Assembly: GCF_009914755.1 (NCBI RefSeq) | Contig: NC_060925.1 | DNA length: 64,000 nt | Strand: one strand, 5' to 3' | Source of the DNA: the human T2T-CHM13v2.0 reference genome, Homo sapiens | Part shown: positions 43,067-47,304 of the stretch, piece after piece | How the letters are laid out: each line of letters starts with the position of its first letter | How positions within the stretch are numbered: position 1 is the first letter of the stretch | Translations under genes and position numbers: made by a program | Notes under the pieces: model-generated | Seen by the model: the letters and a program-made list of their open reading frames with translations, nothing else | Told to the model about the DNA's origin: nothing | Database searches by the model: none

Positions 43067-43544
43067 CTAAGAATACAATTAGGTTACTGCATAACAAAAT
43101 TTCCTTTAACTTATTGTACAATATACAGCAAAAGTCATTTTTACTAGCAATACCATCTTTAAAACACTGAACAATATTTGCTTTTCTACTACTTGCAGGA
43201 AAGAGCTGAAAGCATTTTGGGTAAGAAATGTAATCAGAGCAAAATGGGGAAAAGTAAAGCGATATTTCCTGGTTATTTAACACTAAACCACCATGAATCA
43301 ACTACATTAAAGTCTGATAGAATATCTTTTTTATAATTGATGCATAATAGATGTACACAATTTTGTGGTACATGTGATAATATATTCATAGAATTTATAC
43401 AAATCAGGTCAGGGTACTTGGGATATCCATCACCTTAAATATCTGTCTTTTTTTTTTTTTTTTTTTTTTTGCCTTTTTGGTAGAATGATTTATTTTCTTT
43501 TGGGTCTTTACCAAGTAATGAGATTGCTGGGTAAATGGTAGTCC

Positions 43545-43790
43545 TGGGCAGATTGCTTGAGGCCAGGGGTTTGTAACCAGCCTGGGCAACATGGCAAAAC
43601 CCCGTCTCTACCAAAAACACAAATAAACTAGCTGGGCATGGTGGCACATGCCTGTAGCCCCAGCTACCTGGGAGGCCGAGACGGGAGAATCACCCAAACC
43701 CAAGAGATGGAGGTCTCAGTGAGCTGAGATCACACCACTGCACTCCAGCCTGGGCAACAGAACAGGACTCTGTCCCAAAAAACAAAACAA
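43545..43790 (+). mobile_element. Alu inside retrocopy 3' UTR (antisense to transcript)
   Basis: Partial Alu dimer with several T>C changes. Confidence 0.9.
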
Positions 43791-43799
43791 AAAGACAAT

Positions 43800-44580
43800 G
43801 TGAGAATCTTGAAAGCTCAGAGAGAAGAGCAACTCTCACAGACAAGGGATCTGGATAACATTAGCAGCTGATTTCTCAGCAGAAAACTTGAAGGCCAGTA
43901 GGCAGTGGATTATGTATTTAAAATAATGAAGAAACCTGTCAATTGAGAAACTGATAGCTGGAAAACCTGTCCTTCAAAAATAAGGGAGAAATTAAGACAT
44001 TTCTAGATTTTTTTTAAAGCTGAAAAAATCCATTTATCTCTAAATTTGCCATACAAGAAGCATTAAAGTCCTTCAGGTTGAAATAAATGAACTCTAGGCA
44101 GTAACTATATAAGTAAATAACCAAGCTATATGAATATATAAAGCTCTCTGGTAAAGGTAAATATATAAACAAGCATAAAAACAGTATTATTGTAATTTTG
44201 GTTTGTAACTCCGCTTTTTATTTTCTACATGATTTAAAAGGCAAATGCATAAAATGTAATTATAAATATGTTAGGTGGTGTACAATGAATAAAGATATAA
44301 TCTGTGACATCAATAACCTAAAAAGAGTAGAGCTATATAGCAGTAGAATTTTGGTATGTGATTGAAGTTAAGTTGAAATAAATTCAAATTAGAATGTTAT
44401 AACTCTAGGATGTTATATGTAATTTTCATAGTAAACAAAAACAAAATATACATAGAATATACACAAAAGGAAATGAGAATAGAAACAAAACTTGTCACTA
44501 CAAAAAAAATCAACTAAAGATAAAAGAAGTTAACAACTGAGAAAATGACTGGCAAAAATCAGTAACTCTGACTTATTAAA
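43800..44580 (+). mobile_element. Old L1 fragment (ORF1 end / inter-ORF) inside retrocopy 3' UTR
   Basis: L1 ORF1-like sequence (...gatttctcagcagaaaacttgaaggccagtaggcagtgg...). Confidence 0.7.
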
Positions 44581-45295
44581 ACTCTCCATGCTACATAAAT
44601 CTGGAAACTCTATTTCACATAAAACTGGAGCTGAAAGAGACAAATATTTACTTATAAAATTAAAAGTTATATGGGAAACAAACACTAATTTTTTTTAGAA
44701 AAAATATGAACAGAGTAAAAATATGCCTTATAGTTATCATATAATATCATGTTTTATAGCTCTGGGAAAATAGAAAATAAAATGTTCTGTTAGCATGAAT
44801 CCTTCTGTGCCCTAAAAAAACCCTATGGATCATACTATTATTACCTAAAAAGTCTATTCTCAAATGCAGCAGAGTGATAATTTTTATAAGGTAGATATTA
44901 TTTTTAGATATGGAATAATATTGGTGATTTCAATTTTAATAACATTGGATTAAGATGAAAGAATGAGAAGATAAAGGTCCCTCAGCAATATAACTCACAA
45001 ACATGTTCAGAAGCAGTAAGAAGTCACATTAATTATTTTTTGAAAGTCAATAATCTACATTTTTAATTTATGCATATAGCATAGCTAATGTACTATTGCT
45101 GGGTCCATTTATTCAAGGAATAATTGCCGCTATGTGTCAGACATTGTTCTAGGCCTAGGAATGGACACTTAAGTGAACAAAGCAAAGATTCTGGTTCTTG
45201 TAGTTTCCATTAAAAGACCATTTAGTAAAATTTTTCTTCCCCCAAATTATAAAATCTGTAAGATGATTTAACAACATGTATAAAAGTCATCGTAG

Positions 45296-45604
45296 GCCGG
45301 GCATGGTGGCTCATACCAGGTGTAGTGACTCATAGCGCTCTGTCACTCATGCTGGAGTGCAGTGGCACAATCTCTGTTCACTGCACCTCTGCCTCCTGGG
45401 TATAAGCGACTCTCCCGCCTCAGCCTTTCGAGTAGCAGGGACTACAGGTGCACACCATCATGCCCAGCCAACTTCTGCATTATCAGTAGGGATGGGGTTT
45501 CACCATGCCAGCCGGGCAGGTCACAAACTCCTGACCTCAAGTGATCCGCCCACTTTGGCCTCCCAAAGTGCTGGGACCACAGGTGTAAGCCACTGCACCC
45601 AGCC
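45296..45604 (-). mobile_element. Alu inside retrocopy (sense to transcript), abutting short inverted Alu-head fragments
   Basis: Minus-strand Alu 45335-45604, preceded by GGCCGGGCATGGTGGCTCA on +. Confidence 0.9.
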
Positions 45605-46132
45605 TTATTTTTACAACTTTGATAACTTTAGCGTATACCCCAAATCTGTAAGACATAATATTATCATTCAAATGCAACTCATGGCTTCTCATTGTACTCT
45701 GATTTTCTCTAGCTTTTGAATTCTTTATTCTAATATCAGTTTTAAGTCTGACATAAAAGCATGAGAGTTCTAATCAAAATCCAATCTTTTATCATAATAA
45801 AAACTATCAAGAAATTATTAGAATTTAAAAAGGAAAATAGGCCTATTAATTAGATTTGTATAACATAATATTTTATGCCTATGAGTCCCCAACAAAGCCT
45901 CAAGCTTCTATTTAGATATAAAATGTAAAAGTCACTACTGGATCCACAAGCAGGACTATGGTAAAGAAATTTCTCCACCTAAACTGCTCCTTTAACATGA
46001 TGTTACATGTTTATTTTTTCATTTTGGCAAATATTGATTGAATGTCATCTTCGTGTTAGTCTACATCCTAAGTGCCAGGATACAGAATCTGAAAAGATGG
46101 ACACAGGACCTGTCTTCAGGGAGTTCACACCT

Positions 46133-46420
46133 TTTTATTTCTTGAGATGGAGTCCCGCCCTTGTCGCCCAGGCTGGAGTGCAATGGCAAGAACCTGGCTC
46201 GCTGCAACCTCCACCTCTGGGGCCCAAGTGACTCTCCCAGCCTCCCAAGCAGCTGGGACCACAGGTACCGGCCACCAAGCCCAGCCAACTCTTGTATTCC
46301 CAGCAGAGACAGGGCCTCATCATCCTGGTCAGGCTGGTCTTGAACTCCTGACCTCAGATGGTCCACCTGCCTCAGCCTCCCAAAGTGCTGGGATCACAGG
46401 CATGAGCCACCACGCCCCAC
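46133..46420 (-). mobile_element. AluS (Sp/Sq-like) inside retrocopy 3' UTR
   Basis: Full dimer with heavy T>C substitution on +. Confidence 0.9.
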
Positions 46421-47138
46421 TAGGAGTTCACACTTTAGTTAGGGAAAATATACAATAAGCAAGCCAATTTTTAAAATAAGAACTTCAATCAGATTTAAAT
46501 GCTACAAATACAATCACAGGAAGCTGGGATGTGAATGATAGGGCTCTCAAACAGAAAATTAAGAGAAACGATTATTTCTTACGATGTTTGTCTTTCTTTG
46601 TATTGGTGCTCAGCTGAGTCTGCAGTGCCTCAGAAGCAGCCTTCATTTTATAAAAAATCTATTATTTCTCCTTCCAGTTGTTTTTTCTCTTCTTCGAGCT
46701 TCCTTATCTCCTCCTGTTGAATCATTTTAAGATGCTTGAACTTGTCCTGCAGCTCTTTTTCAGCTTCTTTCTCCTTGACTCGCTGCATAAATCTGTTTCA
46801 ACTCTTCTTCTCTCTGACATTGATCATAGCACTCTTGTCTTTTGGCTTCAAAGATTTCTTGAAAACTAACTGGCTGGTTGTCTGGGCCCAGATCTGTAAA
46901 GCCCATTTTCTGCAGTTTTTGGTACCTACAGCATTCATAGTGCTGAGTGTAGGTTTTTCTTTTAGATTTTCCACATTGGTACAAAGAAGCATATCTTGGA
47001 GCTTAACGAAGTCACAGTGATTTTCATTTTCCACTTGGAAAACTCCCCAAGGCTAGTGACGGCCTCTGACCATCCTTTTACCAACTTTCACTTCATCCAT
47101 ACTCCCTACCACAGCAAAGGATAACAGCCCATGTTTTT

Positions 47139-47304
47139 GGCCGGGCGCGGTGGCTCACGCCTGAAATCCCAGCACCCTGGGAGGCGAGGGGAGGGATCAC
47201 GAGGTCAGGAGATTGCCCGACCACCCCGGCCAACACGGTGAAACCCCGTCTCCACTAAAAATACAAAAAAATTAGCCGGGCATGGTCGTGGGTGCCCGCA
47301 GTCC
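47139..47304 (+). mobile_element. AluY-like fragment forming the 5' end of the retrocopy
   Basis: GGCCGGGCGCGG...GATCACGAGGTCAGGAGA...AACACGGTGAAACCCCG, truncated exactly at the TSD. Confidence 0.88.

What the first reader, a model, noticed from the sequence alone, without database searches (positions are those of the whole stretch)
43452..47304. Genomic fossil of an A-to-I hyper-edited mRNA: SEPT14 retrocopy whose four Alus all carry strand-specific A>G changes
SEEN: against the recalled Alu consensus, all four Alus inside the TSD-bounded insert show clustered T>C on +, which is A>G on the retrocopied strand, regardless of Alu orientation. Examples: at 46133-46420 GCTAATTTTTGTATTTTTAGTAG reads GCCAACTCTTGTATTCCCAGCAG, AGTAGCTGGGATTACA reads AGCAGCTGGGACCACA and GGGTTCAAG reads GGGCCCAAG (about 20 sites). 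At 45335-45604 GCCAACTTCTGCATTATCAG and GGGACCACA (about 12). At 43545-43790 CTACCAAAAACAC, GTAGCCCCAGCTACCT and ATCACCCAAAC (about 9). At 47139-47304 CACCCTGG, ACCACCCCGGCCAAC and CCCGCAG (about 8). That is roughly 45-50 sites by eye versus about 6 reciprocal changes. Alus outside the insert (e.g. 33983, 35708, 39385) lack the pattern. Many sites are UAG/UA/AA contexts in the RNA. KNOWN: ADAR edits dsRNA formed by inverted Alus, prefers a 5' U/A and 3' G, and reverse transcriptases read inosine as G; normal Alu decay is dominated by CpG C>T/G>A. INFERENCE: two sense and two antisense Alus folded back in a germline SEPT14 transcript, were hyper-edited, and L1 TPRT wrote the edits permanently into the genome. 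This would be a single-molecule record of ancestral germline RNA editing. I do not know whether it has been reported for this locus.
Basis: partly seen in the sequence, partly recalled or inferred. Interest (0 to 1): 0.95.

Follow-up and report, generated by a model that had tools for sequence, protein, structure and literature searches.

The report
Hyper-edited SEPT14 mRNA fossilised as retrocopy
A septin-14 pseudogene sitting in an ASPM intron was copied back into DNA from a single messenger RNA whose four Alu repeats had been heavily A-to-I edited, so the genome keeps a permanent record of RNA editing in an ancestral germ line.

Summary

**What the insert is.** Window 43452-47304 is a minus-strand, L1-type processed retrocopy. 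It has a 15-bp target-site duplication, a poly(A) tail and four introns removed at canonical GT-AG junctions. Its source is the SEPT14 locus at G000:C7:55.95-55.99 Mb.

**The signal.** I polarised changes with the parental locus, DNA-level paralogues and an Alu consensus built here.
- The four embedded Alus carry 52 retrocopy-private T>C changes on the + strand, which is A>G on the RNA strand. The reciprocal A>G count is 8.
- The strict non-CpG set gives 45 T>C, 5 A>G, 5 C>T and 7 G>A.

**Controls.**
- In the same Alu2+Alu3 columns, the three DNA-only lineages show 0, 1 and 3 T>C against 35 in the retrocopy.
- Thirteen Alu matches elsewhere in the window show 32 T>C against 33 A>G.
- Non-Alu parts of the insert show no T>C excess (9, against 8-12 in the other lineages).

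**ADAR features.** A 5' G neighbour occurs at 3 of 52 changed sites against 49 of 167 unchanged adenosines (p = 3e-4). Opposite-orientation Alu pairs form predicted duplexes of about 140-208 bp. Enrichment of a 3' G is not seen.

**Limits.** Primate orthologues and present-day editing data could not be checked. Nine literature searches found no report of this locus or this phenomenon.

The parts
43437..43451 (.). Left copy of the 15-bp target-site duplication AAATATCTGTCTTTT
   Evidence: family D11
43452..43470 (-). Poly(A) tail of the retrocopied RNA, read as poly-T on the + strand
   Evidence: The parental alignment starts right after it.
43489..43494 (-). AATAAA polyadenylation signal (TTTATT on +), about 20 nt upstream of the tail and also present in the parental locus
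43471..46752 (-). Copy of the 3.28-kb terminal exon and 3' UTR of SEPT14, colinear with G000:C7:55953036-55956315
43543..43802 (+). Alu1, antisense in the RNA. 11 retrocopy-private T>C(+) against 2 A>G; 23% of RNA-strand adenosines changed.
45290..45606 (-). Alu2, sense in the RNA, including a short opposite-sense Alu fragment at 45294-45330. 12 T>C(+) against 2 A>G.
46131..46422 (-). Alu3, sense in the RNA and the most heavily changed. 23 T>C(+) against 2 A>G; 27% of RNA-strand adenosines changed.
46753..47130 (-). Three spliced SEPT14 coding exons (46753-46865, 46866-47033, 47034-47130). The septin reading frame is disrupted.
   Evidence: Exon matches. Canonical AC...CT flanks in the parent. 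Broken frames. Pfam Septin E = 5.2e-9.
47131..47304 (-). 5'-truncated Alu-derived exon: an 8-nt flank plus Alu4 at 47139-47304, which is sense on + and antisense in the RNA. 6 T>C(+) against 2 A>G.
   Evidence: Best T>C-collapsed match is L023 7312-7485 (G000:C7:~55990112). The flank matches 7 of 8, and the parental gene-strand donor is CAT|GTAAGT.
47305..47319 (.). Right copy of the target-site duplication
   Evidence: D11

Best explanation
A spliced, polyadenylated SEPT14 transcript was hyper-edited A-to-I by an ADAR enzyme and then copied into the genome by L1, fixing each inosine as G.

The proposed sequence of events:
1. The transcript carried two sense and two antisense Alus: three in the 3.3-kb terminal exon and one in an exonised upstream Alu.
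2. The Alus folded into long inverted-Alu duplexes in a germ-line or early-embryo cell of a primate ancestor.
3. An ADAR enzyme edited them at roughly 16-27% of the adenosines in each Alu.
4. That one RNA molecule was used in trans by the L1 machinery for target-primed reverse transcription into an ASPM intron.
5. The reverse transcriptase read each inosine as G. About 45 edits are therefore fixed as G on the minus strand (C on the plus strand).

Shown here: the retrocopy anatomy, the parental locus, the strand-specific and Alu-restricted A>G excess private to the retrocopy, the depletion of 5' G, and the duplex-forming potential.

Inferred: ADAR as the enzyme, L1 as the reverse transcriptase, and the germ-line timing.
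For: **Retrocopy anatomy.** There is a 15-bp TSD and a poly(A) tail. The terminal exon is colinear with G000:C7:55953036-55956315, followed by three upstream exons. All junctions are flanked by canonical GT-AG signals in the parent. An AATAAA signal lies about 20 nt before the tail.

**Unpolarised parent-to-retrocopy differences.**
- In Alus: T>C 64, A>G 18, C>T 19, G>A 23
- In non-Alu sequence: 26, 16, 25, 26

**Four-lineage polarisation over 2639 columns.**
- Retrocopy-private: T>C 44, A>G 4
- Parent: 9 and 16
- C7_64.3 copy: 9 and 15
- Duplicated group: 15 and 12

**Per Alu.** T>C 11, 12, 23 and 6, total 52. A>G is 2 in each, total 8 (binomial p = 5e-9). Parent-lineage T>C in Alu1-3 is 1. 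Fisher test of the retrocopy lineage against the parent lineage gives p = 1.7e-6.

**Strict set.** Requiring the Alu consensus to agree as well, at non-CpG positions: 45 T>C, 5 A>G, 5 C>T, 7 G>A, 7 transversions.

**Same Alu2+Alu3 columns in DNA-only lineages.** T>C is 0, 1 and 3, against 35 in the retrocopy.

**Other Alus in the window.** 32 T>C against 33 A>G.

**Neighbour context.** A 5' G occurs at 3 of 52 changed sites against 49 of 167 unchanged adenosines (Fisher p = 2.9e-4). A 5' A or U occurs at 39 of 52. By triplet, the fraction changed is highest for AAG, UAA, AAU and UAG and lowest for GAN. Porath et al. 2014 (PMC4365171, passages read) report G depleted one base upstream of hyper-editing sites.

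**Duplex potential.** Opposite-orientation parental Alu pairs give predicted duplexes of -246 to -338 kcal/mol with 139-208 bp. The MFE and centroid folds of 46131-47304(-) pair Alu4 with Alu3.
Against: - A 3' G is not enriched: 16 of 52 changed sites against 59 of 167 unchanged adenosines, p = 0.62. Porath et al. report such enrichment.
- The Alu4 signal is weak on its own: 6 against 2, p = 0.063. Its parental assignment rests on an 8-nt flank, a splice donor and its position in the gene. No paralogue exists to polarise it.
- The four lineages form a nearly star-like tree. The 2:2 patterns are 24, 17 and 8, so some polarisation errors are possible.
- The Alu consensus is home-made and errs at some decayed CpG positions.
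- No RNA data, no primate orthologue and no population data were available.
Confidence: 0.88

Rival explanations
1. Strand-asymmetric mutation after insertion. Transcription-associated A>G over T>C asymmetry on the ASPM coding strand, acting on the DNA after integration, would have produced the excess.
For: The insert lies in an ASPM intron in the same orientation as ASPM (hub annotation), so the expected direction of asymmetry is the same. In the non-Alu part of the insert the retrocopy lineage shows T>C 9 against A>G 1.
Against: Thirteen Alu matches in the same gene and strand outside the insert show 32 T>C against 33 A>G. The non-Alu T>C count of 9 equals that of the DNA-only lineages (8-12); only A>G is low. 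The excess is 5-fold per site and confined to the Alus: 0.066 against 0.013 per non-CpG site. Transcription asymmetry does not predict depletion of a 5' G.
Confidence: 0.03
2. Wrong parent or wrong polarity. Either the retrocopy derives from a lost or unsampled SEPT14 paralogue that already had these alleles, or the T alleles arose in parallel in the reference lineages.
For: The tree of the four lineages is nearly a star. The retrocopy is only 90% identical to its best genomic match. Ten of the 52 sites are followed by G on the + strand (C as 5' neighbour on the RNA strand), so at those sites parallel CpG decay in the other lineages could mimic T>C.
Against: The parent, the C7_64.3 copy, a group of 10 duplicated copies and an independent Alu consensus agree on T at 45 non-CpG sites. 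Only 2 sites fall at consensus CpG positions and 2 conflict with the consensus. Parallel CpG decay would be strand-symmetric. A lost paralogue would still need a strand-specific, Alu-restricted A>G process. No copy in the searched assembly exceeds 90% identity (only the best candidates are scored).
Confidence: 0.04
3. The changes are errors of the reverse transcriptase, or arise from another RNA or DNA modification during retrotransposition, and not from ADAR editing.
For: The enzyme was not observed. The 3' G preference expected for ADAR is absent.
Against: Polymerase errors would not be restricted to the four duplex-forming Alus while sparing about 2400 nt of non-Alu sequence in the same cDNA. 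They would not be a single substitution class on a single strand, and they would not avoid a 5' G. There is no G>A/C>T excess of the APOBEC type: retrocopy lineage C>T 16 and G>A 13, similar to the other lineages.
Confidence: 0.04

Closest known systems
Hyper-edited inverted-Alu regions in human transcripts (Porath et al. 2014, PMC4365171; abstract and passages read)
   Same: Dense A>G clusters on the transcribed strand. They are located in Alus that can pair with an oppositely oriented Alu, and G is depleted one base upstream.
   Different: Those clusters are seen in RNA reads against unchanged DNA. Here the pattern is in genomic DNA, in a retrocopy compared with its parental gene. The 3' G enrichment they report is not seen here.
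L1-mediated processed pseudogenes (established knowledge; RefSeq names this one SEPTIN14P12 at 46372-47131)
   Same: Intron loss, poly(A) tail, 15-bp TSD and 5' truncation.
   Different: The annotated pseudogene covers only 760 bp of the 3.85-kb insert. The copy records an isoform with an Alu-derived exon and about 45 extra strand-specific A>G changes.
APOBEC3-edited retroelements fixed in vertebrate genomes (Knisbacher and Levanon, PMC4866542; only the search listing and the start of the abstract were seen)
   Same: Hypermutation by a deaminase during a retrotransposition cycle becomes a permanent, clustered, strand-specific genomic footprint.
   Different: That is C-to-U editing of cDNA, giving G>A in LTR elements. 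Here it is A-to-I editing of the RNA template, giving A>G, in a cellular mRNA retrocopy.
A>G hypermutated retroviral proviruses attributed to dsRNA adenosine deaminase (recalled from 1990s avian retrovirus literature; not seen in any call)
   Same: Edited RNA is reverse transcribed, so inosines become G in DNA.
   Different: Those are exogenous viruses using the viral RT. Here it is a host mRNA, inverted Alus as the duplex, and presumably the L1 RT, fixed in the germ line.
Alu exonisation (for example Lev-Maor et al. 2007, PMC1852406; search listing and start of abstract only)
   Same: An antisense intronic Alu is used as an exon. The parental flank supplies a CAT|GTAAGT donor.
   Different: Only the 3' part of the Alu exon survives in the truncated retrocopy. 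Its acceptor, and any role of editing in creating it, cannot be seen.

Membership tests
L1-mediated processed retrocopy | Introns of the parental gene are precisely absent | tested here: met
   Five parental pieces are joined. Every parental boundary is flanked by AC...CT on +, which is GT-AG on the gene strand.
L1-mediated processed retrocopy | 3' poly(A) tail that is not templated in the parent, downstream of a polyadenylation signal | tested here: met
   A 19-nt T run at 43452-43470 is absent from the parent. TTTATT lies at 43489-43494.
L1-mediated processed retrocopy | Target-site duplication flanking the insert | tested here: met
   A 15-bp perfect direct repeat at 43437-43451 and 47305-47319.
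L1-mediated processed retrocopy | L1 endonuclease-type T-rich nick site | tested here: inconclusive
   The primer strand ends in ...CTTTT at the nick, but the next target base is C and not the A that I recall as preferred. The preference itself is recalled, not tested.
ADAR hyper-editing cluster | A>G on the RNA strand only, in dense clusters | tested here: met
   52 against 8 in the Alus, 45 against 5 in the strict set. 16-27% of the adenosines in each Alu changed. There are 8 doublets and 1 triplet of adjacent sites.
ADAR hyper-editing cluster | Sites lie in long dsRNA formed by inverted repeats, with both arms edited | tested here: met
   Two sense and two antisense Alus are all affected. 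Predicted duplexes are -246 to -338 kcal/mol. In the Alu1-Alu3 duplex, 30 of 33 changed adenosines within the duplex are predicted to be paired.
ADAR hyper-editing cluster | G depleted at the 5' neighbour | tested here: met
   3 of 52 against 49 of 167, Fisher p = 2.9e-4. The motif is as stated in PMC4365171.
ADAR hyper-editing cluster | G enriched at the 3' neighbour | tested here: not met
   16 of 52 against 59 of 167, p = 0.62.
ADAR hyper-editing cluster | Inosine or A/G mismatches seen in RNA from the parental locus at the same sites | not testable with these tools
Septin gene copy (SEPT14) | Septin domain homology and best genomic match at the SEPT14 locus | tested here: met
   Pfam PF00735 E = 5.2e-9 on the fragment 46801-47052(-). 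Exon-by-exon matches of 92-95% at G000:C7:55.956-55.979 Mb. The gene name comes from the hub's RefSeq row, not from a call.

The most novel reading that the evidence does not exclude
This would be the first documented processed pseudogene that hard-wires a hyper-edited mRNA into the genome.

If so, it shows two things:
- A heavily inosine-containing, inverted-Alu-bearing transcript was spliced and polyadenylated and was still available to the L1 machinery in the primate germ line, rather than being fully retained or degraded.
- ADAR editing followed by retrotransposition is a real route from RNA editing to heritable DNA change.

Alu-bearing retrocopies genome-wide could then be read as a dated, single-molecule archive of ancestral germ-line editing.
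Probability: 0.45. Interest if true: 0.78.

Novelty: new variant of a known kind. Interest (0 to 1): 0.62.

Why it matters
Both steps, ADAR editing of inverted Alus and L1 retrocopying of mRNAs, are textbook. A retrocopy that preserves about 45 edits from one RNA molecule links them.

It matters for three reasons:
- It is direct genomic evidence that inosine-rich mRNA can serve as an L1 template in cells that contribute to the germ line.
- It shows RNA editing becoming heritable sequence. I recall this being proposed, but nine full-text searches here did not find it documented.
- It suggests a simple genome-wide test: a three-letter alignment of Alu-bearing retrocopies against their parents. 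That would measure ancient germ-line editing and how often edited transcripts escape nuclear retention.

It also shows that the RefSeq pseudogene annotation (760 bp) covers only a fifth of the real insert.

Tried and rejected
- **Paralogue for the Alu exon.** I looked in the C7_64.3 copy for an orthologue of the parental Alu exon, to polarise Alu4. Only generic Alu hits were found. A genome search with the flanks found only Alus. Alu4 is therefore polarised by the consensus alone.
- **The Alu next to exon D.** I first considered the Alu beside exon D (L011 736-894, 82% identity) as the source of the 5' Alu. Its flank does not match, so I rejected it.
- **L025 3177.** I considered it as an alternative source. 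Its flank fits less well and needs an indel.
- **Editing outside the Alus.** The asymmetry of 10 T>C against 3 A>G (p = 0.047) looked suggestive. However, the absolute T>C count equals that of the DNA-only lineages, so I do not claim editing outside the Alus.
- **Whole-segment translation.** Translating the coding part as one piece failed because the frame is broken. Open fragments were used instead.
- **Literature.** Nine of the ten sought prior reports and returned no paper on hyper-edited processed pseudogenes or on this locus. Subscription-journal papers are not in that library.
- **A review that I recall.** A review by Knisbacher and Levanon on DNA and RNA editing of retrotransposons may discuss the principle. 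It could not be found or read.
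Full report
**1. Anatomy of the insert**

The region 43452-47304 is bounded by a perfect 15-bp direct repeat, AAATATCTGTCTTTT, at 43437-43451 and 47305-47319. It begins on the + strand with a 19-nt T run. It is therefore a minus-strand insertion with a poly(A) tail.

A search of the window's own assembly places the source at G000:C7:
- Window 43470-46754 is colinear with C7:55953036-55956315 (90% identity over 3.28 kb).
- Three upstream exons follow at C7:55965504-55965615, 55967311-55967488 and 55979338-55979444.
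- In the parent, every piece is flanked by AC...CT on the + strand, which is GT-AG on the gene strand. In the retrocopy the pieces abut exactly at 46752/46753, 46865/46866 and 47033/47034.
- A TTTATT (AATAAA on the RNA strand) lies about 20 nt from the tail, and the parental sequence diverges exactly where the tail starts.

The coding part is septin: Pfam PF00735, E = 5.2e-9 on the fragment 46801-47052(-). Its frame is broken into several pieces. RefSeq's SEPTIN14P12 row (46372-47131) covers only about a fifth of the real 3.85-kb insert.

**2. The 5' Alu**

The last 174 nt (47131-47304) are not the next canonical exon.
- I searched about 90 kb of the parental gene with T and C collapsed. The best plus/plus match is L023 7312-7485, at G000:C7:~55990112, about 10.7 kb upstream in the gene.
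- The 8 nt between exon D and the Alu match 7 of 8.
- The parental sequence immediately beyond reads, on the gene strand, CAT|GTAAGT, a consensus splice donor.
- The transcript therefore carried an exonised antisense Alu, and the cDNA was truncated inside it.
- An inverted Alu lies about 160 bp away in the parental intron and is 90% complementary. It could have been an additional pairing partner in the pre-mRNA.
- No paralogue of this region exists in the assembly searched. This part of the argument rests on the flank, the donor and the position.

**3. The substitution spectrum**

*Unpolarised.* Parent-to-retrocopy differences total 298. T>C on + is the largest class at 90, with G>A 49, C>T 44 and A>G 34. 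By region:

| Region | T>C | A>G | C>T | G>A |
|---|---|---|---|---|
| Four Alus | 64 | 18 | 19 | 23 |
| Non-Alu | 26 | 16 | 25 | 26 |

*Lineages available for polarisation.* The terminal exon exists in about 20 further DNA-level copies. These form one young group (0.3-3% apart) plus one old copy at C7:64.3 Mb. All are 7-9% from the parent and from the retrocopy. Shared 2:2 patterns are 24, 17 and 8, so the tree is nearly a star.

*Private changes over 2639 columns present in all four lineages.*

| Lineage | T>C | A>G | C>T | G>A |
|---|---|---|---|---|
| Retrocopy | 44 | 4 | 16 | 13 |
| Parent | 9 | 16 | 12 | 9 |
| C7_64.3 | 9 | 15 | 15 | 17 |
| Group | 15 | 12 | 11 | 16 |

*Per Alu, using all available outgroups.* Retrocopy-lineage T>C is 11 (Alu1), 12 (Alu2), 23 (Alu3) and 6 (Alu4, polarised by the Alu consensus), a total of 52. 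A>G is 2 in each, a total of 8 (binomial p = 5e-9). Parent-lineage T>C in Alu1-3 is 1.

*Strict set.* Requiring a home-made consensus of 103 Alus to agree as well, and dropping consensus CpG positions, leaves 45 T>C, 5 A>G, 5 C>T, 7 G>A and 7 transversions. Only 2 of the T>C sites fall at consensus CpG positions and 2 conflict with the consensus. Parallel CpG decay in the reference lineages therefore cannot explain the signal.

**4. Controls**

- *Same sequences, DNA-only history.* In the Alu2+Alu3 columns the parent, C7_64.3 and group lineages have 0, 1 and 3 private T>C, against 35 in the retrocopy.
- *Same gene, same strand, different Alus.* The 13 Alu matches elsewhere in the window give 32 T>C and 33 A>G over 2534 non-CpG sites. 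The insert Alus give 51 and 11 over 771 sites (Fisher p = 1.6e-4). ASPM transcription-associated asymmetry is therefore not the cause.
- *Same cDNA, non-Alu sequence.* Retrocopy-private T>C is 9, within the 8-12 seen in the other lineages. A>G is oddly low at 1, against 10-12, which I cannot explain. I do not claim editing outside the Alus.
- *Age.* Without the T>C class, private divergence is 2.05% for the retrocopy and 2.16% for the parent. The insertion is old. A date of roughly 20 million years is my inference from commonly used primate neutral rates, not a computed result.

**5. Enzyme signature**

On the RNA (minus) strand, using the parental context:
- The 5' neighbour of the 52 changed adenosines is A at 25, U at 14, C at 10 and G at 3.
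- Among the 167 unchanged adenosines in the same Alus, G is the 5' neighbour at 49 (Fisher p = 2.9e-4; chi-square over four bases p = 7e-7).
- By triplet, the changed fraction is highest for AAG, UAA, AAU and UAG (0.45-0.60) and lowest for GAN (0-0.12).
- Porath et al. [quoted passage not shown] The first half holds here. The second does not: 16 of 52 against 59 of 167, p = 0.62.
- Between 16% and 27% of the adenosines in each Alu were changed.

**6. Duplex potential**

Alu1 and Alu4 are antisense in the RNA. Alu2 and Alu3 are sense.
- Predicted duplexes between opposite-orientation parental Alus are -246 to -338 kcal/mol with 139-208 base pairs. The two same-orientation pairs give -94 and -188 kcal/mol.
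- In the Alu1-Alu3 duplex, 30 of the 33 changed adenosines that lie within the duplex are predicted to be paired.
- The MFE and centroid structures of the present-day sequence 46131-47304(-) still pair Alu4 with Alu3 over about 165 nt (no shuffles were given at this length).

**7. Interpretation**

One spliced, polyadenylated SEPT14 transcript with inverted Alus was hyper-edited by ADAR. It was then reverse transcribed at an L1-type nick, and each inosine was written as G.

SEPT14 is described as testis-specific in the title of Peterson et al. 2007. I saw this only as a reference-list entry in PMC6780492. It fits a germ-line origin but does not prove it. The enzyme identities and the cell type are inferred.

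The rivals each fail at least two of the controls above: asymmetry after insertion, a wrong parent or polarity, and polymerase error. I give them about 0.03-0.04 each.

**8. Novelty**

Nine of the ten answered full-text searches of the held library looked for prior reports. They combined terms for retrocopies or processed pseudogenes, ADAR, A-to-I or A-to-G, hyper-editing, reverse transcription, and SEPT14 pseudogenes. The tenth was about SEPT14 expression. None found a report of a hyper-edited processed pseudogene or of this locus.

A 2016 review says that roles for ADAR editing in Alu evolution had 'not yet been determined' (PMC4982230, passage read).

I recall, but could not see, earlier proposals that edited RNA might be hard-wired by retrotransposition, and 1990s reports of A>G hypermutated retroviral proviruses. 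Subscription journals and bioRxiv supplements were not searchable.

I therefore class this as a new variant of a known kind. It is a clean, well-controlled single case, not a new mechanism.

**9. What remains open**

- Whether primate orthologues share the alleles.
- Whether the sites overlap present-day SEPT14 editing.
- Whether the Alu exon is a real isoform.
- How common such retrocopies are.

Noticed in passing
L023 7312-7600 (G000:C7:~55990112-55990400) and G000:C7:55990573-55990863: The parental SEPT14 intron holds a young Alu with a CAT|GTAAGT donor in its flank, which the retrocopy shows was used as an exon. An inverted Alu lies about 160 bp away and is 90% complementary, making a strong candidate dsRNA in the pre-mRNA.
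   Followed up: partly
G000 C1, C2, C3, C4, C5, C7, C9, C10, C11, C16, C19, C20, C24 (table): About 20 DNA-level copies of the SEPT14 terminal exon and 3' UTR exist. Many lie within about 150 kb of contig ends, and they are only 0.3-3% apart from each other. This is a recently spread segmental duplication family, and it was useful here as an outgroup.
   Followed up: partly
window 46753-46780 versus L010 ~480-525: The retrocopy lacks 15 bp that the parental exon has between two copies of the direct repeat GCTTCTTT. This is either a deletion in the retrocopy or a duplication in the parent.
   Followed up: no
window 43803-46130 and 46423-46754 (non-Alu parts of the insert): Retrocopy-private A>G on the + strand is only 1, against 10-12 in the three DNA-only lineages, while T>C is normal at 9. 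This deficit is unexplained.
   Followed up: no
window 43791-44559: This part of the SEPT14 3' UTR matches dispersed loci on C1, C2, C5, C6, C11 and C16 at 70-72% identity. It is therefore an old interspersed repeat of a family I did not identify.
   Followed up: no
window 43471-43542: The last about 70 nt of the SEPT14 3' UTR, including its AATAAA signal, resemble an antisense L1 fragment. The resemblance is recalled from memory and was not tested.
   Followed up: no
window 43452-47304 within the ASPM intron between exons 42920-43066 and 47591-47695: The insert puts four closely spaced inverted Alus and a sense-strand AATAAA into an ASPM intron, in the orientation of ASPM transcription. It should now be a dsRNA editing substrate, and a potential cryptic poly(A) site, in ASPM pre-mRNA.
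   Followed up: no
window 47186-47216: Alu4 has two small indels and several transversions clustered around 47186-47216 that are neither T>C nor CpG decay. They may reflect a wrong parent assignment for this stretch or a local mutational event.
   Followed up: no
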